Shown here: positions 1 through 56,599 of the stretch, piece after piece | Numbering within the stretch: position 1 is the stretch's first letter | How the letters are laid out: each line of letters starts with the position of its first letter | NCBI GenBank assembly: GCA_951406725.2 | Contig: OX597816.1 | Location: 147,808,001 to 147,872,000, forward strand | Reading direction: 5' to 3' | Source of the DNA: Octopus vulgaris | Taxonomy: Eukaryota | Length of the DNA: 64,000 nt | The notes under the pieces: model-generated | What the model was told of the DNA's origin: nothing | What the model saw: only the letters and a program-made list of their open reading frames with translations | Databases searched by the model: none | Translations under genes and position numbers: made by a program

Positions 1-2045
1 AATAAGTTTATAAGTAAAGATATGACAGACATAGTATTAGAAAAGCACAACTATGTAGCTTGTCCGTTGCTTTCTCTTTTTGCAAAGATTCCAATATTCG
101 CGTTTCGCAAGACTCTTTGTAAGACTTCTAAGTACTATCTACTAGCAAAGATTGCATTGCGAGGTAGTAGGTTAGAAAGCAAGAATAAACAATACGTGCT
201 TCATTACTGGAGCAAAGCTGCATCCGTGGATAATGTATTTATCTCATGTGAGACTGATCCATATGGTAGTATATAAATGCGATAGAGTAAAGTTTACTAT
301 CAAACAACGATATTATATAATTAATAAGTTTCAGGGTAGAGTACAGATACTCGTGTAATATATCGCGATATCCCTGCTTACTTATTCTTGCATATTTTCT
401 TTTCACTATTTAATGGTATTCTTAGACGTGAAAGAATTCCGATATATAATATTCGATTACATCTAGTACCGGTTTTTTTTAGTATATTTATACTGAATAA
501 CGTATTCCTATTGTCGTTACTGTGTTGGTATGCAAAACGAATGTTACACGGATAAAATTACGGTATGAAAATAGGAACCCAATTTTATCGCATGAAGAGA
601 AATTGTACTAAGGTTTTTTTTGGCGCCGGGAAAACCTGGCAATGTATTTGAAAAGTTAATATTTTCTTAATGAATGCCGCTAGCAATTTTCTATATTAGA
701 TGTTCTACTATTAGGGTGACTCAGCTGTTTTTACATCTTCTGCACATGGAAGTATATGCCATTGGCAATTAATTTATTTTTTCTAAATATCAAAACTATT
801 TGTGACAGCATATTAATTTGTCGTATCAACGTATTTTTGATCATATTTAAAATAATTTTCTGACGCTGGAACTCGTACATTTTCAAATTTATTAAATAGT
901 ATGATTCCAAATACAGATTAGTTCATGCCAAATAGCATTTTGTGAAATCCAAATTACATAAAACAATTCTAAGAACATCTCAAAATGACAATTTTATGAC
1001 ATCGGGTTACAAATGACACTAAAGCTTCTTTCGAGTGTTTTTAGTTGGACGTGACAAATAATTATTGATTTTTCAGCGATTTATATTCGTTGTTTATACT
1101 AGACTCATAGCTTAAAGCATTGTACTAGGAAATACTTTGTTTGCTTATATTTTGAAATAGAGTAATTTTGAGGGATTCAGACAGGTAGCATTTTCTCCCT
1201 GTAATAACAGTAATTTTCCATGTTGAACCAGATATTTGTTTTACTGAACATCTGAATAAACTGCTTAGGACTTCTATAACAAACAACATTCAATTTCGTT
1301 CGTTTCCTTCGATTACGTAAATGGAAAGTGAAGTTTCTGTTTTGAACATTCATGCTCGTTTATAGATAATACATTTCAATTTTCAATAAATTTTGATTCT
1401 GCATATTGTCTGTAGATACAGTTACATGGACAATTCTTACTCAACAGTTCTTTTTCATGTAATGATTCAGATTATGAAAATGCTTCTTCACTAAATCATA
1501 TCGGGAAATGCTTGAAATCTCAAAGCTAAAACGGGTGACATCAGAACCAAGTGTGGCATACTGAAGAAACTCCTATAGTAAATTTGTTCACTACTCTTAC
1601 CCCGTTTAAAATTAACGACTTTCCATTAAACGCCAGGTCTAAAAAGATATATATATATATATATATATATTTACTGAAGATATTATGCTTAATTTATAGG
1701 TATATATACAATATGTGTGTGTGCATGCACGTATGTTAATACATGTATTATACATATACATGTACGCATGTACATATATATATATATATATTTAAATTTA
1801 ACAATTAAGGATAACTTCTTAATAAGGAATCTTAACAAGAAACTATCAGGTAGTTAGCGTGAAAAACCTCAAGAGAAAAATTCGAAAGTAATTTTTTCCT
1901 TTTGAATATATTAATTTATATTATATAGAGGGCATTATTACACATAAATGCCTCACACTAAGAGGGACATAAGTCATTACTACCAAAATTTCACTAATCA
2001 TACCCAATGCAGTTTTTCAAAGCAAGACATTTAAAAGATGAATTT

Positions 2046-2112
2046 AGTCCTATATCACCTGTGATTTCGCACTTACCGCATAAAAAATGCGTCTATGTTC
2101 ATCGGTAGAACT
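2046..2112 (-). ncRNA. Second (antisense) copy of the same HHR motif, with G10.1 changed to A
   Basis: Reverse complement reads agttctaCCGATGAacatagacgcattttttatgcggtaagtgcGAAAtcacaggtgatataggact. Confidence 0.6.
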
Positions 2113-2367
2113 GATTCTGAATACATCATAAATAAACGACCAACACTACCTGATAATTTCTTGTTAAGATTCCTTATTAAGAAGTTATCCTTAATTGTTA
2201 AATTTTTTCCGAAAAATCTTTTCCTACCCGAAATGCAGTTCGAATAAGCCCGCCATTTACCGAATATATGATTTATAAACATCTCCATGTGCTTGGCCGG
2301 AGAGAGCAGTTTCCTGTTCGACTTCGCCAGGTAGTGTTGGTCGTTTATTTATGATGTGTTCAGAATC

Positions 2368-2434
2368 AGTTCTACCGATGAGCATAGACGCATTTTTTAT
2401 GCGGTAAGTGCGAAATCACAGGTGATATAGGACT
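2368..2434 (+). ncRNA. Type I hammerhead ribozyme motif, core CCGAUGA (U4C variant)
   Basis: Stem I AGTTCTA/TAGGACT; core CCGATGA at 2375-2381; stem II GCAT/GTGC extended by CGCAT-TTTTT-ATGCG; GAAA at 2412-2415; stem III ATCAC-AG-GTGAT; predicted AUA cleavage after 2427. Confidence 0.75.
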
Positions 2435-3073
2435 AAATTCATTTTTTAAATGTCTTGCTTTGAAAAACTGCATTGGGTATGATTAGTGAAATTTTGGTAG
2501 TAATGACTTATGTCCCTCTTAGTGTGAGGCATTTATGTGTAATAATGCCCTCTATATATATATATATATATATAGATAGATACGTACAGGCGTGTTCACA
2601 CCTACATATCATAGTATGTGTAACACTGGCATTAAGTTTCTCTCACGCATAATATCTGTGTATATACACACTCACAAACACACACTGGTGTGCATGTATG
2701 TAAGCTGGAAACTAATAAAATCTCGGCGTATATATTATGCAGTATTCGATACGGCATTCCGTCTCACTATACATTAACCCTGATATTCAATGAACTCCCT
2801 TGGTGCACGGAATTCAGGCACATATCACTGATTGAGTAAATTGGTGTGCAGGCGTGGTTATGGATACGAAAATTGTTTCCCATCTACAAGCTTATGGGTT
2901 CAATGCTACCACATGACAACTTGTGAGAGTATTTTTAGCTATAGCCACTATATAAACTTAGATAAAATAAGACTTAGATATGCTTCGGCCAAAGATGGGT
3001 CCAGGCCATGTCTAACTTAATAGCCCCACCTGATAGGATTATCTAAATCCTTTTTAAGTCAAGTTGTGTGGTA

Positions 3074-10363: not shown

Positions 10364-10978
10364 ATAGATAGATAGAATCAAATGATACATCGCAATGCAG
10401 TTCCGCCATAATTTAGATCGTAAATATTGAATACTTAACAAAACAACTTCTCAAACCTAAGGTTCAATTTGAATATTGAAAGCCATTATAGAGAAAGAAT
10501 AATATTTAAATTAGAAAATATTCGAATATTCAATGCGTTTTAGTTATCTCGTATTTAACATGTGGATACAAAAGAAAATATTGTAAGGTTTTGAAAAAAG
10601 TGCCAAAGCTTTCATTATTATGGCGCCATAAAAAAAATCATGTTTTCACAAACCAAAATCACGTATTTCAAAATTCAGTGTACGAAATGTCCTCCGCTAT
10701 AATTTATATATCTCATATATTTATGCACGAACGGTAAAACTATATTTTGGCGCAGTTGACTAATGAATCTGAAAGCAGTTATTCTTACAAATTGTTCAAG
10801 TTCTTAGAAATGTATTTTATATCCATAGAGAATTTTAGATAACCATGAACCGACCCGTATATTTCAATACGGTGATATAAAAACGTATTTCGATTTTCTA
10901 TTATATTGTTAACAAAAAAGGGCGTACTACTTACTAATGTTAGAGATACATTTATATGTAGATATATGCATGTATATT

Positions 10979-11400
10979 TTACATACAAAATTAAGAGGAA
11001 TGGCCGCTTAAGTAGATTTCTGATATGCTAAATATAGACGTCAAATCGCCATTACTACGAAGAGTCTGTTCTCAAGAAAATAAAATTCAGCAAACGCCAA
11101 AATGCAAAAATGAGCAAGACAAATGAAAATATGCAAAATAAATTGTGTTTTGTAAATGACAGACTGTACTGATGATCTTGCAGATATTTACATACGTAAA
11201 TATTAACAAGTAAAACCATGGACCGTAGGTAATCGTTTTTTATTTCGTATATTTTCATTTGTGTTGCTCATTTTTGCATTTTGGTGCTTGCTGAAATTTT
11301 TTCCTTCAGAACACACTCTTCGTAGTAATGGCAATTTGACGTCTATATTTAGCATATTAGGAGTCCTCTTTACTGTTCCTTATCTTAATTTTGTATGTAA
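10979..11400. mobile_element. Foldback element with ~170-bp arms and a decayed HHR in the spacer
   Basis: 10979-~11152 is the imperfect reverse complement of ~11238-11400. The spacer contains CTGATGA (11169-11175). A related hairpin copy is at 51360-51505. Confidence 0.7.
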
Positions 11401-11484
11401 TATAATTTTTAATCTTCGGATATTTTAAATATGCTAAGCCACTGTTTTTAATTAATTAGTATCAATTTCTACCCTCATTATTTA

Positions 11485-11577: not shown

Positions 11578-14325
11578 TTGCTTCAGGGTTTGAATATACA
11601 CCTGAATCTAAAAACGCGTAGTCGTTTTTAAATTTCGAAGATTTATTCACATACCATACTAGTTGGTGTCTTCCTCTCAGATCGCTCCTTCCAAGTCCAA
11701 GTAAATGGTTCGCTGCCCGACGTCTCCAGTGCGAGCAGTGGTGTGCCTCAAGGTTCAGTGCTTGGGCCCTTATTGTTCTTAGTCCTCATAAATGACTTGC
11801 CCGACGACCTCACGCAACACACCCTTCTATTTGCCGACGATGTCAAACTGGTCGCTCCTCGCGGTGATATAGAGGATCTTCGTCGATGCCTCCACCAAAT
11901 TTGGAGATGGTCTAACGAAAGGGACCTGTGTCTGAACGTGTCAAAGTGCTGTCATCTGCCTGTTGGCTCTCCTCCTGCAACTCGATTTCGAGCCGGGTCG
12001 TCTGCTGCTGGAGAGGACCGACCAGGTAAAGGACCTGGGTATCTTGGTAGATTCCCCCTTTTCGCCTTCGGCCCAGTGCGTCCATCCTGCCAACAAAGCA
12101 CGCGGAGTTCTGTTCTTGATTCGACGGTCATTCGGAATGCTCACAGCAGCCATATTCCTACCGCTCTATGTCACGCTGGTGAGACCCATATAGGAGTACG
12201 GGATTCAAGCCTCTTCTCCTTATCTCCTCAAAGACATACAGCATCTCGAAAGAGTTCAGAAGCTGGCTACCCGCATGGTTCTTGGTCTCAAGACTTTGTC
12301 TAATGAAACTAGGCTGAAGACGCTCGACCTTTATTCTCTAGAAAAACGGCGACGCCGTGGTGATCTCATTCTTGCTCACAACATCATAAGCGGAAAGTGT
12401 AACCTCTGGAAAGAGCTGTTCTTCACTCCTGCTCCAGAGCGTCGGCTGCGGAGTCATTCCGAAAAGCTCTATCTGCGACGATTTCATCTCAATCGAAGAA
12501 GAGGGGCTTTCTCCGTCCGGGTTGCGGATCCGTGGAATAAGCTGCCGGGCGAGATGGTGAAATGCCGACGACCGCTCGGTTCAAAGTCTCCCTTGACCAC
12601 AAGTGGCCTGAACTCTTTACATGAACACTAACAGGTACGTAACTCCATGCCCCCCTACATGGCCTTGCTTTTTGCTTTTTGAGCCAAAAAATTAACTAAC
12701 TAACTAACAAGTTTCGACAATGGTTTTGCTTATCAATTGTACAAATGTATAAATAAGGATTTTAGGAAAGTTTAATTTCTATAAGGTAAAAATTGGACAA
12801 ACATGTTTTAACGCTGAAATGTTCAAGTGTTTAATCAAAAATGAAATAGAAACTATAATAACGAGAGACATCCAAAACAAGAAAACCCAATCACACACTA
12901 AAATCTTTTGTCTTACCTATCAACACACAACCCAGAGAACATTGATGCATACAACATCTTCCATCAGAATATACCTCTCCTACTGAGCGACCTGCCAATT
13001 AAAACAGCTTTCGAAACGCATAAATTTCTTAAAAGTAAAAGACAATCCAAATCCCCCAAAACGTTAATTAACAGCACCAAATTACCCACCCAAAATACAA
13101 CCCCACTAGTCAAAAAATGCAACCACTTGAACTATGGCACTTGCATCAATTTATGGAAGGTTCAACATATGAATTCAAATCAGTTCAAATATTCACCATA
13201 AAAATCACTTCATCTGTGCATCGAAGAACTTAATTTATGTTCTCAAATGTCATTGGTGTGGTGGGGACTACACAGGTCAAGTCAAACTAGCATGACCTAT
13301 ATAACTGATCCGGGGCCCACGAACAGGAAAATTCCCGTAAGCAAATGGGATCAATGCCCTGCAGTCATAAATCCGAAATACCAAATGTTCCCTTCCTGTC
13401 AATGAACCAGAATCATTTCCACTCAATTCTGATTGAATAAGGAAACCATCCCTATTCGTTAAAAAAATAAAAGCGCACATAAATATTCTAGTATAACACA
13501 CCTGAAAGAGAAAACCCATTATTTCCACAAAAACCTACAAGACAACAGATATTAGTCGAAACGTTTAGGTAACAGGCTTCTTCGGGGATTCAAAACCCCA
13601 ACTCTAAATTACTATACACTTTCTCAAACAACAGTCACTGACGTCACCTCAGAAAGAAACCAATGAAATTTTTCTGTGGTCAGAACCGGACGTTCAGGAA
13701 AGAAAAGAAAAAAAAACAAATAGTGACTTCCTGAAGGAAACATCTAACCGGAACGATAAATGACTATCAAACAAAAACAAGTTACCGTGTCTATACCAGG
13801 TCAATCAGACAGCACGCTGAACGTTGCCAAAACAACAATATTTTGTCCAAAACGGAAAATATTTTTGATCAAAATAAAGTGACATTATGAAACCTACAAG
13901 CAAAACTATAACCAATCAAAAATTGGATTCTTTTCCGTAATATATACATATATATTTATATATATATATCAACTCTACCCTTTTCTCTTTTTTCTTCACT
14001 TTTTGCATATAAACTCAACGTGATCTTTCAATAGTATACATTTGTTATGATCTTCACCAAACATTTACACTTATATTACCAGCTATCCCCGTGAAATTGA
14101 TTGAAATTTCTGAGAATATTTGAACATATGAGCGTTAAGTCATGCTTGTCCAATTTTTACCTTTTAACTTTGCACTCTCCTAATCCATTTATTTATCTAT
14201 TCGTACCACTGAGATGCAAAAGTTTGTCGAAACTCTTAATAGTTCGGTATGTGAATAAATCTACAAAATTTAATAACGACTACGTGGTTTTAGATTCAAC
14301 TGCATTTTCAAAATCTAAAAACAAA
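11578..14325 (+). mobile_element. Decayed Penelope-like element with a GIY-YIG remnant and inverted pseudo-LTRs (interrupted by the CR1 LINE)
   Basis: KKCNHLNYGTCINL (~13110-13155) and FICASKNLIYVLKCHWCGGDYTGQ (13209-13280) fit the PLE Zn-knuckle plus GIY-YIG consensus. 11578-11661 joined to 12708-12835 is the reverse complement of ~14105-14325. Confidence 0.8.
11662..12707 (+). mobile_element. 5'-truncated CR1/L2-type LINE (RT C-terminal half, frameshifted), inserted into a PLE inverted repeat
   Basis: FLSDRSFQVQVNG..SGVPQGSVLGPLLFLVLINDLP..LLFADDVKL; VKDLGILVD; LYVTLVRPI; LYSLEKRRRRGDLI; FSVRVADPWNKLP. The 3' tail is (taac)n. Confidence 0.92.
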
Positions 14326-16590
14326 TTCTATCAAGGCCGGTTTATGGCGTTACTCTGTTTCCCATCCATAAAGGGTTCAAATTGATGACGCGTCGTCACA
14401 TGCCAATGCCTGATTACCTAAGACCACTTTATAATATAGAGGAGAAAGAATCTTGATACAAAATTCAAAAGTAAACAAGGGGATTATCTCCCTTTTCTAG
14501 TGAGTATTGACTTCCAGTCGTGGTGCCATCAATCGGCTATGACGGTAAACAATAGGGGATTATCTCCCTCTTCCACGAGTTATCAAATTTTTGTTCCCAA
14601 AAGGCCAGCACAAATTTCATAAAATGCAATTATCACTTAAAATCTCCGTTCTGGAGTGAAGTATGGCCCCTGGTTCGAGCGATCTTTTTAGGATCCCCGT
14701 AAGTTCGGCTATGCATAGCTTGCAGCGTTTCATACCGTTTATGTAGGGGCCTCGTCTTTCGAGGATTTTCCCTGAGATTGAATGTGGATTTCTGTCGTCC
14801 TTTAGTTGCCATACATGGCCAGCCAGCGATGTTACGTACCTACTTTCTGGGACCCGGAAGGAGGTTCTGTAGTTGAAAACACGTATTTAAATGAATTTGC
14901 CGTATAACCAATGTATTCTCGTGGACGCGCGATGTATGTGCTGTGTCTATTATTGTTGCCATGGGTACTGCTGCTGCTGCCGCTGCTACTGCTGCTACTG
15001 CTGCTGTTTATGTTGTTGCAATTGTGGCTACCGATGTCGTTGTTTTCGGCAGTGTTTTTGTTGCTGCTGCTGTTGCCGATGCTGATGTGTATAGAGCTAG
15101 GGCTGTAGGAGCTAACGCTGTAGGAGTTAAGGCTGTAGGAGCTAGGACTGCTGGTGTTGGTGCCGCAGGCGGTGGTGGTTGCGTCAGTAATGTTGTTAAT
15201 GTTACCGCCTCTGTTGATGTTGATATCAATTCTGCCGACGTTATCGCTGCTGTTGCTGTTTTCGCCGTTGTTCCTGCCGCTCCTGAAGTTGACGCTGCTA
15301 TAGCTAGAGCGGAGTCTGTTGGTGTTGTTGGTGTTGGCGAAGGTGGGGCTTGTGGTGACATTGGTAATGCTATCGCTGTTACTGTTGCTACAATCGGGGT
15401 TGTGAGGCTTGTCGGTGTGGACTTTTCAGGTCTGCTACTGTGGGCATCAGGAAAGCTGTTAAGGCTGGCGTTATGGGCGACGCCACTGTAGCCGATGTTA
15501 GTGATGGTGCTGTCGAGGTTGTGGATGGCGTTGTCGTTGGTGCTACTGTTGTTGACGTCGCTAACGCTGTCTGCTGCGGTAGTGGTGGCGGTATTGTTGG
15601 CTCTGTTGTTGGCCCTGGTACCGTATTTGCCGGTGGAATTGGCAGGGTTTGCTCGTACTTATAGTATGGGGCCGCGGCGTCAAAGTAATCTTGGTTAGAG
15701 GAAAGGCTCGAAATGCAGGTTCTTGAATACGATGGGTGGGTGACAGGATGCCGTGTTGATGTAAGTATGTCTCTCGTTTAGTTTGCGGTAGGGTCTGTAA
15801 ACACCGGAGCCCAAGTGTAGCATGACATCCGTTGTGGCGATCTTCAATCTCGTGGAGGTAAGCGTGTTGATTAAGTGCTACCTAGGCCCATCTAGTCTAC
15901 GCAGTTTGATTCCCTGGAGATGGGTGTCATCCCTGTAGACGCCAAAAGAGGACAGAGGAGAATTTTTCGTAAGGGTATCCTGGATATATAACCTTTTGAG
16001 GTGACACCCGTCAGCTCTGTCGTAAGCCCCAATCGCTACCTCAAAGGAGCCCGTGAGGTCGCATTGTTTGACCCATGCCGAATCTTTGTTGAACAGTAAT
16101 CTCTTTCTTGCATGCATAATAATTTTTACATCTCTATCGTTAAGGCTAGTAAAGCCCCTAGCGAAAGAAAGCACTTTGGTAAGTAATCCTTTTGATATAG
16201 CCGAATGCATGAGGATCCTAAAATACTCGCTCGAACAAGGGGCCATAATTAACTCCAGAACGGAGATTTCCGGGCCATGCTTATATTTTAGGAAATTCCT
16301 GCTGGTGTTTTCGGAACCGGAAGTTGATAGCTAGTGGATGAGAGAGATAATCCCCTATTGTTTACCGTTATAGCTGACTGATTGCGACACTGTAGGAAGT
16401 CGATAGCCACAAGCAAAGGGAGATAATTCCCTTGTATACTTTTGCATTTTGTATCAAGATCTTTCCCCTCTATATTCTCAAGATATTTTACGCCATCAGG
16501 CATTTGGGTGTGACGACACGCGATAAAGTTGAAGCCTTTATGGACGAGAAACCCAGAGTAACCCCATAAACCGGCCTTCACCAGAAAATT
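14325..16590 (-). mobile_element. Decayed Penelope-like element (RT-thumb-GIY-YIG) with a ~390-bp inverted terminal duplication
   Basis: Minus strand: SAISKGLLTKVLSFA..IIMHARKRLLF..WVK..FEVAIGAYD..GVYRDD (RT); YRPYRKLNERHTYINTASCHPPIVFKNL (thumb); EYIGYTANSFK, TSLAGHVWQLKD, PYINGMKRCKLCIAE (GIY-YIG). 14333-14716 is inverted at 16196-16579. Confidence 0.88.
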
Positions 16591-28282: not shown

Positions 28283-28406
28283 TATATAGAGGGCATTATT
28301 ATACATAAATGCCTCACGCTAAGAGGGACATAAGTCATTACTACCAAAATTTTACTAATCGTACCCAATGCAGTTTTCGAAGCAAGACATTTAAAAAATG
28401 AATTTA
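28283..28406 (+). mobile_element. Truncated copy of the 1797-2556 family
   Basis: Nearly identical to 1922-2046; breaks off just before the HHR. Confidence 0.85.
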
Positions 28407-28410
28407 TGAA

Positions 28411-28690
28411 TACCTCGCTCAGAGATTTATTATTGCTATATATATATATATATAGCAATAATAAATCTCTGAGCGAGGTACAAACAGTAGCTGCACGACA
28501 TCGTAAAGTATATATAACTCTTAAGAGTGGATGCTACTGTAGCTTGTAGCCCCAGGAGGACACCTCCTCCAGCTGGCTAGTGTATCATACAGGCTGAAGA
28601 CGGGAATGATGGCTTCGCTTTGCAATAACAAGCTGGAGGAGTGTCTTCCTGGGGCTACAAGCTACAGTAGCATCCACCTTTAAGGGTTAG
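28411..28690. repeat. Two adjacent foldbacks: a perfect palindrome at 28411-28480 around (TA)n and an inverted pair at 28515-28574 / 28631-28690
   Basis: tacctcgctcagagatttattattgc-(ta)n-gcaataataaatctctgagcgaggta; gtggatgctactgtagcttgtagccccagg versus cctggggctacaagctacagtagcatccac. Confidence 0.85.
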
Positions 28691-30378: not shown

Positions 30379-32912
30379 TGCCTTCGTATGTTTGTTCAGC
30401 CGTGCCTGTTAATGTATACATCGTCTTTTTTATTGTATGCGTATATTGAAATAGATTTCATCCGATATCAACTTTTATGATATAATCCGTTTTGCTGTCA
30501 CAGAAGACACTAGATGTCTCTCATTGGACACCATCGAAGCGTTATTTTGCAAATGTACAATACAAAACTCTTATGATAATTCTGAATATGTGTACTTGTA
30601 TATGTGAGTCTGCGTTTATACCTATATATGTAGGAGTGTATGTATGCTCGATTTGTTAAAAATGTATATTTTTTTCTCTGCCAATCGTATTTTTTTTCAT
30701 GTGATATTTATTGTTTGCTCTAGGTAAGTATGAAGCTTATTATATATCGGAATAACAGACATATCCATAAACATACATGCTGAAGCACATAAACATAAGT
30801 GTGGCAGTGTGTGTATATCTGTGTTTATATAGATATAAGTATCTCCTAAACGTTCCAGTGTGTGTGTGTGTGTGTGCATGTAGATGCACAGGCACACATA
30901 TATAGCAGACACACTTATAAATATATAATGCTTTGTGCACATATATGTGTGTTTGTGTGTTTGTGACTCTGCGTCTTTGTGCGTGTGTCTCTGTGTTTCA
31001 CTATGTGTGTGTGTGTGTATCTGTGTGTATGTTTGTGTATGTGAAAGCGTGTGTGTATATACATAGGGTGTTATATGTGTAACTAAGAATATATGTCTCT
31101 TTCTGTTGCTGTAGTTTAAATTATTTTAACATTTGGAATGTTTACTTTGTTGGCGTATATTAAAAAAAACAAAAAACTATATATTGCTTTCAAGTTTATT
31201 TTCAATATTTCTCAGTCCTGCACAAAACACGAAAAGAAGAAAGAAAGGATTACCAGTTAAATTGAGTAAATAAATTTTTAATGTAATTTATATCATACTT
31301 AAAAACTGAATCGTTGATAAATTCTAATAAAATGTCTCTGTTATGGTTGCTGAAAGTTAGAAGATGATGAGGCTGCCAGCATAATAGATGAAGTCAAGCA
31401 ATATTGAAAACCACGATCTACATACATATACAGAAATAAAAGTTGTTCTCAGCTATATTTTTCTATTTGCTCTAGTTATAGGAGTCTCCATCGACAGGGC
31501 CACTAAATAAGTATTGAATTATATATATTTTTTTTAAATCAACAAATTCTGTGATATAGAACTCTAGTATGATAGTGAATGGACTGATATTGCCATATGA
31601 GATGTAAAAATTCGATTTTTGATAACAATTTATAATGCAATAAACGAAATATTCTATAGGGATGGATTCACATTTTGTCAGATGACAATTTAATATTTAA
31701 ATGTGACTGAACGAAAGGAGTACAGAAAATGAGTAGAAGGTCATATCAAAGACTTCATTATTATTAATTTATTCTTCCTATGTTTAGTGTTCAGATAGTA
31801 TCAGAAATGGCTTTGTTTACCACTCAAAATTACTTGAATCATATACAACCAACATACAGCACGTGAGAATACTAGATTCGTAATTCATCAAAGCAAAGAG
31901 AATATTCGGCTTGTATCTCATCAAAAGAAAATCCTGATAATTTTGATTTGTAACAAAAACGTATGGTCTAATACTGTGCGGGAGTATATAAGTCAATAAC
32001 AGAGTAAAGTACGTGATGTAGAAAGACATAAGACGAAGAAAACATAGATAAAGTAAGTACCGTTAGGTATTTTCTTTGACCCTCGATCGATTCTGCAAAA
32101 ATCAAAAATGTACAGAATTTAGCAGAGGGCACGAGAATCGTGCATAACGAACGAAGATTCTATTAGATAGATATTAGTACTTAACTGGCTCTTAATTTAT
32201 CGCCCCCTGACTGATACATGACAAACTTTAATACAATCGAAACTTAATAAAAAATTTAAAGGACTACATATAAATACAGAACACAGAATATCTAAGTTAG
32301 TCAAGTACTACAAGTATTCTACCGCCCATCACTGTCCTTTATTTACGCAAAACCTTATGTTGGTAAATATAGGTCGAGTGCATATCAATATGTTGACAAT
32401 ACTTACAACGATGTATTATTTCTTTGCAAATAGCTACAAAAGGCTTCTTGTCATACCTTCAAGTATTTTCTCTTGTTTGAGACTTTGTTTAGATTTACAT
32501 GGAGTATTAGAGGTTTGTGGCAGTTTGCATAATGAAAAGAATATATGGGCAGTGTATATTCATTAACCAGACAAATATCCCTTTCATATAACTTTCATAT
32601 CACCTTTTCATATCACTGATACAGTGTATTTTTTATCGCCTAAAAGCTGAACTCCCTGTGTCTTAGTGAATCTAAACATAAATTCTAGTACAGATATTTT
32701 GTAGAAATGGCAGGAAAACATTACGATAACTGAATGAGTCGTACAAGAGTATACAAGGCAAATTATAGTTCTTTTCTATGGCTGCATTAGGCATCAGGAA
32801 AGCAATAATTTCCCCATATACACACATTAGAAGACACAAAATTTGTTAGATGATAAGGCGCTGAAATGCCCCGACCTGTTCTATTGCTTAATTCCTTAGT
32901 AACTAACAACAG

Positions 32913-32938
32913 TAATAATAATGATGATAATAATAATG

Positions 32939-33025
<87 letters not shown>
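32913..33025. repeat. (TAA)n microsatellite, 5' flank of the Dong-like element
   Basis: Tandem aat array. Confidence 0.95.
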
Positions 33026-35559
33026 GAAGTCACTGCAGCACCAACGGCAGAAGAATTGGAAGAATTCTGGAGAGAAATATGGTCGGCGAACGAACAACCA
33101 AAAAAAGGAGTATCAAAATAACAAACTCGGCATCTGAACAACTTTGGAGCCCCATAACAACTGAAGAGGTCACCCAGGCACTGCAAAGACTAAGCAACTG
33201 GAAGGCACTCGGGCATGACAAGATCCCCAACTTCTGGTTGAAATATCTAACAGGAAGGCACAAAAAGCTGGCTGAAAACTTTAATAACATGCTAGCAGAG
33301 CCAGAGACAATGCCTATATGGCTCACGAAGGGGAAAACCATCTTAGTTCCCAAATCAAATGAAACAGAAAAACCAGAAAACTACAGACCAATAACCTGCC
33401 CCCTTACTAAGTTCAAGGCATTTACTGCAGTGATATCGCAAAGGTTGAACAAGCACATGGACGAAAACAAACTGTTCCCAGGAGAGCAGAAAGGATGCCG
33501 CAAAGGCTCATATGGCTGTAAAGATCAACTAATGATCAATAAAGCCATAACTGAAGACAGCCACAGAAAGAAGAAAGGCCTCAGTATGGCCTGGATTGAC
33601 TACAAAAAGGCGTTTGATAGCATCCCCCACACATGGATCCTCGAAACACTAGCCATTATCAAAGTAGCACCAACAATCATAAAATTCATAGGACACTCTA
33701 TGAATAAATGGCAAACAGTCCTACACCTCCAAACAAAAGAGGGACTCATGAAAACCAAAGACATCCCCATTAAAAGAGGAATATTCCAGGGAGACAAGCT
33801 CTCTCCACTCCTTTTCTGCTTGGCACTGTCACCTCTATCTGATATACTAAATAGAACTGGATGTGGATATAAATGTTACGGCAAAACGATCAGCCACCTT
33901 TTATATATGGATGACCTAAAACTATACGCTGCAAATGACAACCAGCTGGAAACACTATTAAAGACAGTTCATGGATTTACCAAAGAAATAGATATGAAAT
34001 TTGGATTAGAAAAATGCGCCAAAGTAACCATGAAAAGAGGAAAACTAGTTAAGAGTAGCAACATCACACTAGATAAAACCAATGAAATAAAAAATTAGAC
34101 CAAAGCCAAACTTACAAATACTTAGGAATCCATGAACTAGATAAGACACAACACACACAAATGAAAGAGAAAATAAAAAAAGAATATTATAGACGAGTTA
34201 GATCAATACTAAAAACAGAGCTCAGTGCTAAAAACAAGATAATAGGTATCAACACTTTAGCTGTCCCAGTTATAAGTTACAGCTACAATATCCTTAACTG
34301 GACACGAAATGAACTGACCAAAATAGATAGGAAAACAAGAAAAATAATGACAGGATCAAGGATGCATCACCCAAAATCTGACATAGAAAGACTATATATA
34401 CAACGTATAGAAGGTGGAAGAGGCCTTATACAGCTGGAAAACTACTATAAAATAACCACCATAGGACTGCAAAAATATCTACTTCAGAAGGAAGGAAAAC
34501 TGACACAAATAGCGGCAAAACACGAGCAAAACAAAAAACTGTTCTCAGTATTTAAGGAAGCTGACACATACAAACAAGAAATCATACCACCTAATAAATA
34601 TGAAGAAGAAGAAGAAGAAGATGAAGAAACAACAAAAGCTATAAAACAAATGAAATCCAAACTAAAAATAGAACAGCAACGAACCATGATAAAACGATGG
34701 CAAGAAAAGCCCCTTCATGGTAAATACTGGACTAAACTAAACGCAAAAGAAATAGACAGAGAAAAATCCGAGCAATGGTTGAGAAGCTCAGGACTCAAAG
34801 CAGAAACAGAGGGATTTTTAATTGCAGCACAAGACCAAAGCCTCCCCACCAGAAATTACCAAAAACATGTATTGAAAAGAAATATTACAAGTAACTGCAG
34901 AATATGTGGAGATGGACAAGAAACAATAAATCATTTTATCTCTAGCTGCCCAGTCCTGGCTAAGAAGGAATATATTCACAGACATGACATAGTTGGAACC
35001 TACATACATTGGAAGCTATGCCAACATTATGGAATAACAACAGAAAAAAGATAGTATAGGCACACACCAGAAAAGGTCACAGAAAACGAGAAAGCAACCA
35101 TACTCTGGGATATGCCGATATACACAGATAGAGAAATTAAGGCCAACTGACCAGATATAGTTGTCAGAGATCATGAAGACAAAAATGCTTTCTAATTGAT
35201 GTATCAATACCGGCAGATGACAACGTATCTCTAAAAGAAATGGAGAAAATTTCAAAATACAAAGACCTGGAAATAGAGGTAACTAGAATGTGGAATCTGA
35301 AAACAGAAACAATTCTTATCATAGTAGGTGCATTAGGCATGATAAAAAAATATTCAGACAAATACATAACAAAAACACCAGGACTTACAAACACATATAA
35401 CATACAGAAAATTGCACTACTAGGCACTGCACACATCCTACGCAGAAACACTTTCCATACAATAACCATCAGAGTATCACAACAAATCACAGCACATACC
35501 TAAGGCACACAGAGCTGCGCTCGGTAGTGAAGTGAAAGCACGCTGTAAAAATAAAACTA

Positions 35560-41189: not shown

Positions 41190-41195
<6 letters not shown>

Positions 41196-41910
41196 CTTAA
41201 TCAAAGGACATACTAAGTATGTCTACCTGCTGGAAACAACAGTCAAAACACTAGTTTAAATCGTCGTCAAAATACACTGATAATAACAACAGAAATCAAC
41301 CGTCCGAAGGCAAACGGGCTGAGGCAATATCCAGACGTACAGTGGAGTATTTGGACTCACGTGGACCACTTTTTTGCACTGGCAAAATAGTCTCGGCTTC
41401 CTCACCACGCGCGTTACCATGATAGGAACCCCACAACCTGTTGTGTTGAAGTCTGCGCCACAACTAATTCGTTTTGCGCCGAAATTATGGCAGCCACCAG
41501 TGTGAAAATTCTTTCAATACGGAGCAAATAATTAACGAGGAAAAAATAGCTAACGAAAAGATATTTTGCGAAGATATCGGTCCACGAGAGTCTAAATACT
41601 TGAATGTACGTTGGGAGATTGCCTTAGCCCGTTTGCCTTTGGACGGTTGATTTCCCTAATTATTATCAGTGTATTTTGACAATATAAATTTTGACTGTTA
41701 ATTCCAGTGGGTAAACATACTTAGTATGTCCTTTGATTAATTTCAATCTTTCATCTATTTAATCCTTTTTGGGGAGCCTGCAATTGCCTATATTAGTGAG
41801 TCTGTTATTATCATTTTCAAATTGTTACACTAGATGATAACAGAATCAATGTTATCTTCGCAAAATATGTTTTCTTGAACTATTTTCTTTCTCGTGAATT
41901 ATTTGCTCCA
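41190..41910. mobile_element. Diverged nested inverted-repeat element (B-spacer-A-B'-A')
   Basis: 41190-41367 is the reverse complement of 41579-41747, and 41521-41576 is the reverse complement of 41853-41909. It starts right after (TA)n. Confidence 0.7.
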
Positions 41911-43016
41911 TTTTAATGTCCTCTATTGCATTTTTGTTCCATTTTACACTTATGTATATATATATATAGATATACAGACTGAGAGGTTGATTTGATCGTT
42001 AAGAACATTATAGTATTAGAATTTATCTTCTGACTGTAGATTTTTCTTTTAGTTATTTGGATCTGCTAGTGAGGAGGGAGGGATATTCGGTTGAATGGAG
42101 ACAAAGGGTTTTTCTATTTATAGATATCGAGAATGGTAAAATAAATGTCAAAAGTTATTCATGTTGAAGTTAATGTGGTAGGGGGATTATAGACTAATAA
42201 TGTCTTAGAGGTTGCCTACTACTACTTAGCATTGTAACCTTGTATCAAGAAAACTAAGCCAATACCCTTTTTACAATTAACTAAATGACCTCAATAAACA
42301 TTTGTATCTTATAAAGTTATAGAAAATATAGAGATTCCTTTACTTTTGCATAAATATATATACATATGCATTTGCATTAATATATATAATCGGAATTGGC
42401 TAGTAAGTGGTGATTATTTTAATACGTTGGATTAAAAGAAAATGTTCGAGCATTTTCTTTTAATCCAACTTATTGGACAGTGTAGGAGGTGTGTTTGGGT
42501 GGGGGAAGGAAGAGCAATGTGGAATTGAAAGGAAGTTGTTGTTTCTCTTTCAAAGTTCAGTGGTTTTGGGTATTGGTCTTTAGCGGTCAGAATGGTGTGA
42601 GTCTGGGTGTCTCTGTGTATTTATATATATATATATATATACATACATGTGTGTGTGTTTGTGTGTGGGGGCCGTCTTTGATTGGTCCCAGGGTTTATTG
42701 TGGTGTATGTAAATGTGTCTGTGTGTATATGTGTGCACGTTTGTGTGTGTGTATGTGTTTGTTCAGATGTGTGTATGTGTGCGTCTGTGGGCGCGTGTGT
42801 ATGCTTATGTATTTTTGGATTAGTGGGGATGTTATGTGTGTGTAGGTAAGTGTGTGTGTACATGTGTGTGTGTGTGTATCTCTGTCTTAGTATGTTTGTG
42901 TTGCTATGGTTGTCTTGGTGTTGTGTGTGTGCGTATGTATGTGTGTGTATATGTGCGTCTGTATGTGCGCGCGTGTATGTGAGTGTGTGTTGTGTCTGAG
43001 TATGTCTGTTTTAAAT

Positions 43017-45821: not shown

Positions 45822-46852
45822 TGTGTGTTTCTATATACACACACGTATATATATATACATGATATATATATATATATGTTCGTGTGTGTGTGTAGATATA
45901 TATCTATACTATAATGGAGAAAGCCGCTTAATAATTAGGTATGTAACAATTACTAAGAATAGTAAAAGAAAGGAATTATTAAAGGGTTGACTGTCTGGAA
46001 GCATTTTTATAAATTCCTGTTCTAAGAAATTTCTTATAATTTCGATTTCTCAAGTTTATTGAATTTTTTGCTCCAATTTCTCGCAAATCTGAATATTCAT
46101 CGCATTCTCTATATCCAATTCTTCGCGAATTTAAATATTCATTGCATTCACTGCGGGGCATTCAATTTTCATTTGAAAAGTCTCTCACTTTGTCTTTTAA
46201 TATTTTCAAGTTTGGAAAACCGACAGTTCATTCTATTAATGCATAGGTAATGTAAAAACATTATTTATCAGATGAAAACGTTTTAAAATACGTATAATTT
46301 TTGTTAAACAATTTTTAAGTGATTTTGTTGTTATGGCTGCTTGGAACGCTATAAGCCTTACAATAATAACTATCCAGACCGATTTTGACCATTTTCCTTT
46401 TTAACATAAAATCCATGGGATGAAAGTTTTCGGTAACAAAAAAAAAACAAAACAACTCAATCGTTTTTGCTGTTGTTTTTAGCACAATCCAAATAACCCT
46501 CCTCTTTCATTCTCACTTGTATTGATGTTTTTTCAACACGTTTCTCCCATTAAACACATTTTGTGAAATGTTGATGCCGAAGTAAAACACGCGTGGTTCA
46601 TTGGTAGAAGAAAAACAAAATAAATTGTAATCTAAATTTTTACCCCCATCTGAATAAAGCGAAACCGTATGTATATGTGCAAGAAAAGCCATTTTCTAAC
46701 CGAAAAGTATGCTATTAAAATGAATTATAGCTTACGTAACTCTTTGTTTGTTTGTTTTTTAAATCAACGACAATTGCAGCGTGGAAGATATATGTAAGCC
46801 ATTCAATAACGCACAAAAAGTTAGTTTCACTTCAACATTTAAATTTCATTTG

Positions 46853-46899
46853 TGTCAAAATATTTTCGTCGCTTTGAAACCGCGACATGTTCACTGACA
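46853..46899 (-). ncRNA. Antisense copy of the GUGAACA hammerhead motif
   Basis: Reverse complement reads TGTCA GTGAACA T GTCGC ggtttcaaa GCGAC GAAA ATAT TT TGACA. Confidence 0.65.
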
Positions 46900-46931
46900 A
46901 AAATTCGTGCTACATAACTTTTGTGAAGTTT

Positions 46932-46978
46932 TGTCAGTGAACACGTCGCGGTTTCATAGCGACGAAAATATTTTGACA
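46932..46978 (+). ncRNA. Minimal type I hammerhead motif with core GUGAACA (C3G/G8C swap)
   Basis: TGTCA GTGAACA C GTCGC ggtttcata GCGAC GAAA ATAT TT TGACA, with 5-bp stem I, 5-bp stem II and palindromic AATATT stem III. Confidence 0.65.
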
Positions 46979-48782
46979 CAAATGAAATTTAAATGTTGAA
47001 GTGAAACTAACGTTTTGTGTGTTTTTCAATGGCTTACAAGCATCTTCCATGCTGCAATTGTTTTTACTTTAGCACACGATCTCAGATGAAGTCATTTGCT
47101 ATGCAAGTACATCTCCGTAATTTTATTTTTAAATCACTTTGGATAAATGCCAGCAATGATCTTCTCAGGGTCTCCAATATTTTAATTTTGAAACAGTAAT
47201 AAATCGGGGGCAGGGAGTAGCGTCGCAAAAATTTATAATTTCTTAAATTTTCTTTTTTATAGCATACAAATATATTTATGGGGAGGGATATTAAAAAAAA
47301 CATCAATACATGCGAGAGTAATAAAGAAACACGGAGGGTTGTCTTTGGGTGTGCTAGAAACAGCAGCCAAATTGCCCTTTTAATTATTCATTTTTCTCTC
47401 TGAAAATATTAACAATCTTTTAAAACATTTTATACTGAAAATGCTCTTCCGATGGTTTTGAAGCTCAAAACAAAAAAATTGCCAAAATAGGTCCGGAATG
47501 GATGGTGAGAAGGGGAGCCGATTGCAAAAAACAGTTTTCAAAACATTTATGTGAGAACAGATCAACTTGTTCGTCACCTTTCTTAACTTTTCCAACTCTA
47601 CCTCCTCGTGTATCACGTCTGACGTTTTTCAAGACATCTGTCTCTCTGTCGATTATTTGGTAGAAATATCTTGATTGCAGTATCCACTACTCTTGGTTCC
47701 AACATAGCTACAGCATCCGTAACCCTCCGATTCCATAAAAATTCACTTTGGAGGAAAGAATGACTCAGCTTACTACACAATAAAAACTCTGTCTCGTATC
47801 GTCGACGCTACCTGCAAAAGCACTCATCTCTGCGTTCCACGTATCTCTAGGGTTTGATCCTTGAACAATCGTTTTCTCTTCCTCTAATCTACCACCGCAT
47901 TATTAAATCTGTCCAGCGTGCCATAATATCACAATTCCCATTTCTGAAGCGTGATCCAGCTACTTCCGACCTCGTTACATAGAACTGTAATCTGATGTGA
48001 CACTCTCGCCCACAACACATCATCTACTCAACACAGCCAACACGGGCCTTCAGTAGTCTCATTTTCACTACTTCACCCGTCCGTTCCTTTCAAAACTAAT
48101 ACTTTCATAATCGGACTTAGTACCTACATAGATCTCCAGAAACCTCATTTACTGCAATAAAATGCCAACTATGTTCAATGTTAAATGCATTCCAAGTTGA
48201 GTAGAAAATTTGTTAATATGTTGATCGTGTAATGTAGATATGTAACATTTATGACTCACGGATCACTCGTATCCTGTCATATATCTCTGCGCACACCCGT
48301 TTTTCGCTTCAGAGTGGATATCCCATCTTTCGAATGGAGGTGTGTAACAGACTTTCTACCAGCACCGAAAAATTCAACTTCATGTATTAAATCATTGAAT
48401 CAATTTTTATAGCTATCTGGATTCATATGACTATATACACAGTGGGCCTCTATTCAATAAATGCACAGAAGCACACACAAAAATTTCAATATATCTACAG
48501 AAACACCTGCACATTGCATACACATAGTACATACACCTACGCTTATTCGATATGCTTATACACATATAGCAATGCACACGCGAGCGAACACACACACACA
48601 CACATATGTTGCAAACATGTGCACACATATCGCTGCACACACACATACACACACATACCATTAAGCCCCAGCTCCCTCCACTGACGCTCGTCCATTCACT
48701 TGACATTCAACGATATTCATCTCCTAAACCGTAATTCACTATCCACAAGCACTTAGGAATTATACCATAAGAAAACCTATAT

Positions 48783-50934: not shown

Positions 50935-51179
50935 CTTTGTCACCTCTACCGGTGCTGGTGCGTTTACGTCCACGTAATTTCGCTCGCAGTTCGGCAAAGG
51001 AAGCCCACAGAATGAGTAAGTACAGGGGTAAATTCATCCGACCAAAACTACTCCTTCTGTGGGTTTCCTTTGCCGAACTGCGAGCGAAATTACGTGGACG
51101 TAAACGCACCAGCACCGGTAGAGGGGACAAAGACACACACACACACACATATATATTTCACCGTGAGGCATTTTGACCG

Positions 51180-56187: not shown

Positions 56188-56239
<52 letters not shown>

Positions 56240-56243
<4 letters not shown>

Positions 56244-56448
56244 ACAATTAAGGATAACTTCTTAATAAGGAATCTTAACAAGAAATTATCAGGTAGTTAG
56301 CGTGAAAAACCTTATAAGAGAAAAATTCGAAAATAATTTTTTCTTTAGAACATATTAATTTATATTGTATAGAGGGCATTATTACACATAAATGCCTCAC
56401 ACTTAGAGGGACATAAGTCATTACTACCAAAATTTCACTAATCGTACC
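56240..56448 (+). mobile_element. Partial copy of the 1797-2556 family
   Basis: Highly similar to 1797-2004; begins directly after (TA)n. Confidence 0.85.
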
Positions 56449-56599
56449 TAATAAAAATATATAAATGTATGTATCTATTTATGTATGTATATAACATAAA
56501 GAATGTGGCTGGACTCATTTTAAAACCAAAGGTAATCAATTTACAGCCATTAAAAGTGACCAAGGGTACCGTGACCACCAGCATTGCCAGAAACAGGAG

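What the first reader, a model, noticed from the sequence alone, without database searches (positions are those of the whole stretch)
1797..2556. Nested inverted-repeat element with a U4C hammerhead on each strand
Seen: an interleaved A-B-A'-B' structure of ~760 bp between (TA)n tracts with near-identical arms, so probably young. Each B arm holds an HHR with a 7-bp stem I, an extended stem II and a stem III of ATCAC-AG-GTGAT, longer than in typical minimal PLE HHRs. Two further partial copies (28283, 56240) both stop before the ribozyme. Inference: a non-coding PLE pseudo-LTR product of template switching and inversion that may self-cleave as a monomer and would form long dsRNA if transcribed.
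Basis: partly seen in the sequence, partly recalled or inferred. Interest (0 to 1): 0.7.

Follow-up and report, generated by a model that had tools for sequence, protein, structure and literature searches.

The report
Head-to-head hammerhead mini-retroelement insertion
The two mirror-image repeats are two partial copies of one very abundant, roughly 480-base non-coding repeat that carries a hammerhead-ribozyme motif, likely pasted head-to-head into a TA microsatellite by a Penelope-type jumping gene's enzymes, which is a known insertion style, and the ribozyme is predicted to cut poorly on its own.

Summary
Observation confirmed: interleaved inverted arms A/A' (61 nt, 98%) and B'/B (229 nt, 99%) between (TA)n tracts. 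The right arm holds a type I hammerhead motif with U4C (1 strict hit; 0 in 40 shuffled windows). The left copy has lost the G10.1-C11.1 pair. Contigs of public runs show a very high-copy family. Its natural junctions close into a ~481-nt ORF-less unit (Y'-A'-X-B), and other inversion junctions occur at other points. The locus is best read as one Penelope-like (PLE) insertion: two 5'-truncated copies joined head-to-head at an 8-nt overlap, with a tail (here 130 nt) on one end only. That architecture is published for PLEs. Monomer self-cleavage is unlikely. Stem III is palindromic (self-duplex -11.2 kcal/mol, hairpin about 0). U4C is reported to lower activity. A read-through transcript would bury either ribozyme in a 229-bp duplex. 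No autonomous partner or ORF homologue was found, and cleavage is untested. The scan noted similar PLE stumps in two other genomes. What is less ordinary is a dispersed, retrozyme-sized closed unit with PLE-type insertion footprints.

The parts
1771..1793 (.). (TA)n tract at the left end, likely the target microsatellite
   Evidence: sequence; the left 3' end abuts it
1794..1923 (-). 130-nt tail of the left arm (Y' then A' in sense orientation): the next part of the unit after the B end
   Evidence: the same B-Y'-A' order and the same end within a few nt in copy 56239-56452; A|Y bridged by X13 record 1
1924..2152 (-). left arm B' (5'-truncated copy, pLTR-like part)
   Evidence: 229 nt, 3 differences from B
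2046..2112 (-). left hammerhead motif, U4C plus G10.1A, likely damaged
   Evidence: A.C mismatch; all X2 depth at 2098 (1854 of 1854) carries the G10.1 allele
2145..2152 (.). 8-nt overlap ACTACCTG/CAGGTAGT at the head-to-head junction
   Evidence: not bridged by any of the 32 contig pieces shown of 2727
2145..2205 (+). A', with a strong stem-loop (2152-2189) just upstream of the tail end; candidate RT-binding or initiation hairpin (inferred)
   Evidence: -14.8 kcal/mol, z -5.07, 0 of 200 shuffles as good; the same fold in the 56240 copy
2206..2327 (+). X, the segment present once in this insertion; a natural part of the unit
   Evidence: A'|X bridged by X18 record 14; X|B bridged by X3 records 30 and 31 and X13 records 4 and 7
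2328..2556 (+). right arm B, ending at the family's common 3' end in (TA)n
   Evidence: copy 28283 ends within a few nt of the same point; summed contig depth in X3 peaks over the matching 1908-1965
2368..2434 (+). type I hammerhead motif, U4C, palindromic stem III, predicted cut after 2427
   Evidence: the canonical U4 allele is in 2742 of 3857 depth in X3 and 0 of 892 in X2
2553..2574 (.). (TA)n tract at the right end
   Evidence: sequence
28285..28406 (-). 5'-truncated family copy, 3' end at the B end in (TA)n
   Evidence: 93-95% identity
56239..56452 (-). 5'-truncated family copy with the full 130-nt tail, ending in (TA)n
   Evidence: 94% identity

Best explanation
The locus holds two partial copies of one abundant ~481-nt ORF-less unit (Y'-A'-X-B) with a type I hammerhead motif, likely inserted in a single Penelope-like retrotransposition event using an autonomous partner's enzymes. 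Shown: the unit's junctions, the two recurrent 3' ends in (TA)n, the variable 5' ends and the 8-nt overlap. Inferred mechanism, in steps: (1) a more-than-unit or circular RNA with an uncut or re-ligated ribozyme site is bound by a PLE RT/GIY-YIG protein; (2) both strands of a (TA)n target are nicked; (3) each strand primes reverse transcription at one of two internal start sites, the B end and the A' end 130 nt further on; (4) both cDNAs stop early and are joined head-to-head through the 8-nt microhomology. The ribozyme would serve the family's RNA processing, most likely as a dimer through the palindromic stem III. In this copy the left motif is likely dead, and both would be buried in duplex in a read-through transcript.
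For: Unit: X|B is bridged by 4 records among the 32 pieces shown, in runs of two organism labels, with 5-18 differences per piece. A'|X is bridged strictly by 1 piece and partly by 3. One record (X18 record 13) has a joint consistent with B end, about 70 nt, A', start of X. B-Y'-A' recurs in the 56240 copy. Abundance: 1149 and 1436 contigs were laid in the two DNA? runs, and there are 3 loci in 64 kb. The inversion point is not fixed: joints 1965-2145 and 2011-2339 (X2) and 1988-2182 (X13) occur, and none of the 32 shown pieces bridges this locus's junction. The arms differ at only 4 of 290 nt, while the left arm departs from the family-majority allele at several B positions, such as 1957, 1961 and 1992; both arms therefore share those alleles, as one template would give. 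Ribozyme: the canonical U4 allele and a U.G to U-A change in stem I occur among relatives. Literature: inverted 5'-truncated copy, tail on one end, microsatellite bias (PMC8557442); a 15-bp overlap of inverted and direct pLTR and head-to-head arrangement (PMC3846280); a PLE protein cuts and extends both strands, starts at two internal sites that define the tail, and uses unprocessed RNA (PMC11167929).
Against: No RT or GIY-YIG remnant and no autonomous partner were found. The tail is 130 nt, against 30-40 nt in the papers read. No target-site duplication can be read in (TA)n. Closure of the circle rests on short unitigs and one other window copy; no piece spans a whole unit. Rfam does not recognise the hammerhead. 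Two listed variants in stem II (2408, 2393) break pairs of my model instead of compensating. Summed depth over the ribozyme is about 8-30 times lower than beside it, so most family members have a different or decayed motif. This locus's own junction and flanks were not seen in the contigs shown.
Confidence: 0.72

Rival explanations
1. The arms are simply truncated ends of an autonomous PLE. The ~481-nt closed unit is not itself the mobile entity, but a long pLTR region or a local deletion form of a longer ORF-bearing element.
For: An ATG at the start of stem II resembles the ORF start described for the Anolis PLE. A 33-codon open stretch at 2146-2244 ends in a stop that is a sense codon in 62% (X2) and 52% (X3) of family depth. 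Two earlier scan notes read similar stumps this way in other genomes (AI notes, not evidence). 220 loose ends were not shown and could hide an ORF branch.
Against: A' stands both after B-Y' and before X-B, which leaves no room for an ORF. X|B is bridged by divergent contigs in two organisms, and X has depth of the same order as its neighbours. No protein match was found.
Confidence: 0.13
2. The inversion arose at the DNA level after one ordinary insertion (fold-back repair or a replication template switch), or from two separate insertions.
For: The 8-nt inverted microhomology would also fit DNA repair. The window holds at least 7 other non-microsatellite inverted pairs. 8-nt inverted matches are common in the unit (18 overlapping 8-mers).
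Against: Both outer ends are standard family 3' ends that abut (TA)n, and the left arm carries 69 nt (Y') absent from the right arm, so it cannot be a fold-back copy of it. There is no (TA)n at the inner junction to serve as target for a second insertion.
Confidence: 0.07
3. It is a MITE or other DNA transposon, with A/A' as 61-bp terminal inverted repeats.
For: 1794-2205 is bounded by 61-bp inverted repeats beside a TA-rich site.
Against: A' continues into X in other copies. The two outer ends of the whole insertion are not complementary. Other copies are 3'-anchored and 5'-truncated.
Confidence: 0.03
4. The inverted arrangement is an assembly artefact of a high-copy repeat.
For: No shown contig piece bridges 2145-2152 or the flanks (32 of 2727 shown; repeats near 1560-1680 and 1762-1807 were skipped).
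Against: The arms differ at 4 positions, the structure matches a published biological pattern, and comparable inversion joints stand in contigs of two runs.
Confidence: 0.05

Closest known systems
Insertion architecture of endonuclease-bearing Penelope-like elements (PMC8557442, PMC3846280, PMC11167929)
   Same: 5' truncation, inverted 5'-truncated copy head-to-head with a short overlap, tail on one end only, (TA)n/AT-rich target, type I hammerhead upstream of the 3' ends, stem-loop near a 3' end
   Different: No RT/GIY-YIG ORF; the repeating unit is only ~481 nt; the tail is 130 nt rather than 30-40
Non-LTR retrozymes of animals (PMC7229834; bioRxiv 10.64898/2026.07.22.740005)
   Same: Non-coding, low-GC (36%) unit of a few hundred nt with one type I hammerhead; more-than-unit permuted copy; proposed mobilisation by PLEs
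   Different: No head-to-tail tandem array in this window; dispersed, truncated and inverted copies; U4C core; circular RNA and cleavage not shown
PLE hammerheads with palindromic helix III (PMC4209133)
   Same: Type I topology, palindromic helix III suited to dimer cleavage, G10.1-C11.1 pair (right arm), high variability of the motif within a genome
   Different: Helix III of 4-5 bp rather than absent or 1-2 bp; helix I of 7 bp; long interrupted helix II; U4C, a natural variant reported to lower in vitro activity considerably (PMC3088659)

Membership tests
Autonomous EN+ Penelope-like element | ORF with PLE RT and GIY-YIG endonuclease | tested here: not met
   Six-frame translation; 0 Pfam families for 2 frames; no hits for P0001 or P0002
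Autonomous EN+ Penelope-like element | Inverted 5'-truncated copy with tail on one end | tested here: met
   pattern described; tail longer than published
Autonomous EN+ Penelope-like element | Type I hammerhead in the terminal repeat | tested here: met
   (motif only; activity untested)
Non-autonomous PLE derivative | Shares terminal sequence with an autonomous PLE of the same genome | not testable with these tools
   No genome held; exact 22-nt patterns found nothing in the non-animal collections
Non-autonomous PLE derivative | 3'-anchored, 5'-truncated dispersed copies in AT-rich or microsatellite targets | tested here: met
   4 of 4 copy ends in the window abut (TA)n at one of two unit positions, with 4 different 5' ends
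Non-LTR retrozyme | Short non-coding monomer with a type I hammerhead | tested here: met
   481-nt unit inferred from junctions; no single piece spans it
Non-LTR retrozyme | Head-to-tail tandem of at least two units with complete ribozymes | tested here: not met
   None in this window; tandem arrays elsewhere in the genome could not be examined
Non-LTR retrozyme | Self-cleavage and circular RNA | not testable with these tools
   Only contigs were available; they cannot show ends or strand
Hammerhead ribozyme (type I) | Core CUGANGA...GAAA...UH with three helices | tested here: inconclusive
   The right arm meets all but U4; the left arm also lacks G10.1-C11.1; no Rfam match
MITE / TIR DNA transposon | Terminal inverted repeats bounding the mobile unit | tested here: not met
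   Outer ends are not complementary; A' is internal in the unit

The most novel reading that the evidence does not exclude
This is a dispersed, very high-copy ~481-nt retrozyme that is copied from a circular or multimeric RNA by PLE enzymes. Each insertion would carry the PLE fingerprints (two internal start sites, one-sided tail, head-to-head inversion), giving direct genomic evidence for the proposed but unshown PLE-retrozyme partnership. A splice donor inside helix II may also make splicing and self-cleavage mutually exclusive.
Probability: 0.3. Interest if true: 0.65.

Novelty: new variant of a known kind. Interest (0 to 1): 0.38.

Why it matters
The insertion pattern is textbook PLE, so the locus alone is ordinary. 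The papers read propose that PLE enzymes mobilise animal retrozymes but say the mechanism remains to be worked out. A high-copy closed monomer with PLE-specific insertion footprints would let that be tested on many copies and with the existing in vitro PLE assay. If such inversions are frequent, they would also be a plentiful source of near-perfect 200-300-bp dsRNA; editing or small RNAs were not examined.

Tried and rejected
Rfam gave no hammerhead match. No own genome was available.

Protein remnants: Pfam on 2 frames gave 0 families. The 46-residue sense frame read with X at two stops gave 4 candidates, none at E<=1, which is weak evidence. The 67-residue antisense frame gave 0 hits among 1.84 billion representatives. 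My early idea that this antisense frame is an endonuclease C-terminus (a recalled resemblance), with A-B as the natural junction, was dropped: X|B is the bridged junction.

Exact 22-nt patterns found 0 matches in metagenome (2 scans), viral and prokaryote genome contigs.

Expression: no RNA holder listed. The two runs guessed to be RNA held 53 and 59 family contigs, but their RNA status is a guess and contigs show no strand or ends, so I draw nothing on expression or cleavage.

Splice lead: GTAAGT at 2404-2409 is expected 0.18 times per strand by chance, and no matching joint was listed.

The 5' end of copy 28283 lies 6 nt past the predicted cut; as one case among four 5' ends, it is not taken as evidence.

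I guessed a cephalopod host from the repeat texture (recalled impression, untested) and used that only to steer paper searches. Parts 1-2 of 3 of PMC13282606 describe no such family; its supplement and repeat library were not seen and may contain it. PMC4795812 and PMC5785218 (on PLE hammerhead variants cleaving as dimers) were not held. Searches listed no paper that I could identify as describing this family; Repbase and Dfam could not be checked.

Full report
Observation. The region 1794-2556 has two interleaved inverted pairs: A 1794-1854 with A' 2145-2205 (61 nt, 1 difference) and B' 1924-2152 with B 2328-2556 (229 nt, 3 differences). Between them lie Y (1855-1923) and X (2206-2327), each present once. 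(TA)n tracts flank both ends. B' and A' overlap by 8 nt at 2145-2152. Two more copies lie at 28285-28406 and 56239-56452 and stop before the ribozyme.

The ribozyme motif. A descriptor scan finds a type I hammerhead at 2368-2434 (+) with helices of 7, 4 and 5 bp and core CCGAUGA. It is the only strict hit in the window, and 40 shuffled windows gave none. Rfam does not match it. The minus-strand copy has A at position 10.1, which breaks the first helix II pair; in run X2 all depth at that site (1854 of 1854) has the G form, so the change is likely private to this arm. Canonical U4 is carried by 2742 of 3857 depth in X3, 7.7 of 21.1 in X13 and 0 of 892 in X2. U4C is therefore probably a multi-copy subfamily trait, not a lesion of this locus (inference; summed depth is no copy number). 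One variant turns a U.G pair of helix I into U-A, but two listed variants break pairs of my helix II model. Depth over the motif is roughly 8-30 times lower than beside it, in line with the strong variability of PLE hammerheads described in PMC4209133 (parts 1-2 of 4 read).

Can it cleave as a monomer? Probably poorly. Helix III folds at -0.6 kcal/mol as a hairpin and at -11.2 as a self-duplex. The exact hammerhead fold has modelled probability 6e-4 in 2368-2434; such models ignore tertiary contacts. Palindromic helix III and dimer cleavage are the pattern reported for metazoan PLE motifs (PMC6765202 passages). U4C is said to decrease activity considerably in vitro while still allowing viroid infectivity (PMC3088659 passage). 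In a transcript of either whole strand, the predicted structure puts the ribozyme inside the long B/B' duplex. Cleavage was not tested.

What the unit is. In ribozyme-sense orientation the left arm reads B-Y'-A' and the right arm reads A'-X-B. The 56240 copy independently reads B(part)-Y'-A' and ends within a few nt of the left end. I laid contigs of four coded runs on 1560-2400 at 85% likeness: 1149, 1436, 53 and 59 contigs were laid, and 32 of 2727 pieces were shown. X|B is bridged by X3 records 30 and 31 and X13 records 4 and 7. A'|X is bridged with 31 or more letters on each side by X18 record 14 and more narrowly by three others. A|Y is bridged by X13 record 1. X18 record 13 has a joint whose lengths fit B end, about 70 nt, A', start of X. 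The junctions thus close into a unit of 481 nt, though no piece spans it whole. In contrast, no shown piece bridges B'|A' at 2145-2152, while joints 1965-2145, 2011-2339 and 1988-2182 show the same kind of inversion at other points. Of the two candidate junctions, B'|A' is therefore the one likely made at insertion. No coding remnant was detected.

Mechanism. All four copy ends in the window abut (TA)n at one of two unit positions, the B end or the A' end 130 nt later, and the four 5' ends differ. This is the PLE pattern: an inverted 5'-truncated copy, a tail at one end only and microsatellite bias (PMC8557442 passages), with a short overlap between the inverted and direct repeat and head-to-head orientation (PMC3846280 passages). 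In vitro, an Anolis PLE protein cuts AT-rich DNA, extends both strands, starts at two internal RNA sites that bound the tail, and prefers uncut RNA (PMC11167929, parts 1-2 of 4). I infer that one event made both arms from a more-than-unit or circular RNA, one cDNA per target strand, joined through the 8-nt microhomology. Both arms run through the predicted cut site, so the template was uncut or re-ligated there. A strong hairpin in A' (z -5.07, 0 of 200 shuffles) lies 16 nt before the tail end and is a candidate recognition element; the hairpin at the B end is not significant (z -1.11). Four differences in 290 nt point to a young insertion, though RT errors or gene conversion blur this.

Comparison. 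It works like a PLE insertion but is not an autonomous PLE, because the ORF test failed. It resembles animal non-LTR retrozymes in size, low GC and motif (PMC7229834 passages and Discussion; bioRxiv 10.64898/2026.07.22.740005, parts 1-3 of 5). It lacks their defining tandem array in this window. That preprint also reports dispersed monomers and found cleavage in only 1 of 9 tested dimers. Both papers propose PLEs as the mobilising partner without showing the mechanism. Differences from the published PLE pattern are the 130-nt tail and the closed 481-nt unit. Earlier scan notes describe PLE stumps with inversions in two other genomes; I did not check them, and my junction result came first. No look-alike of this sequence was in the scan's index.

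Limits. There was no own genome, only unitigs and no raw reads, so locus junction, copy number, expression, cleavage and partner remain open. Repeat libraries such as Repbase, Dfam and the supplement of PMC13282606 were not seen and may already list the family unrecognised.

Verdict. The feature is real. Its architecture is known, and the family looks like a non-autonomous PLE-dependent, retrozyme-sized variant. Interest 0.38; 0.65 if the circular-template, PLE-mobilised reading is confirmed (probability about 0.3).

Noticed in passing
window 2378-2409: An ATG at the ribozyme core/helix II start is followed 26 nt later by a perfect GTAAGT donor-like site inside helix II. A shorter helix II variant in one X2 contig appears to keep it. 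A possible acceptor lies at 2167-2168 of the next unit, before a 33-codon open stretch. The motif is expected 0.18 times by chance; no splice joint was listed.
   Followed up: partly
window 2245-2247: The stop ending the 2146-2244 open stretch is a sense codon in 62% (X2) and 52% (X3) of family depth; it may be a remnant of a PLE ORF start. No protein hits.
   Followed up: partly
window 28406 (equivalent to 2434): The 5' end of this copy lies 6 nt downstream of the predicted cleavage site, as run-off on a cleaved RNA might give; one case only.
   Followed up: no
window 28411-28480 and 28515-28689: A perfect 35-bp-arm palindrome centred on (TA)n sits directly beside the 28283 copy, followed by a 49-nt inverted pair at 92%.
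   Followed up: no
window 46770-47061, 50935-51132, 41194-41743, 10975-11404, 14333-16578, 42421-42474: Further non-microsatellite palindromes or inverted pairs (80-93%), some abutting microsatellites; no hammerhead motif was found in them by the relaxed scan.
   Followed up: partly
window 32857-35503 (+), 11632-12631 (+), 15878-16330 (-): Broken reverse-transcriptase-like ORFs of LINE type (RTE-like and CR1/L2-like by recalled resemblance, not searched).
   Followed up: no
loose ends behind 1968: A recurring alternative continuation in all four tables' best rows for X2, X18 and X13 suggests a diverged subfamily that shares only the B 3' end; it could lead to the autonomous partner.
   Followed up: no
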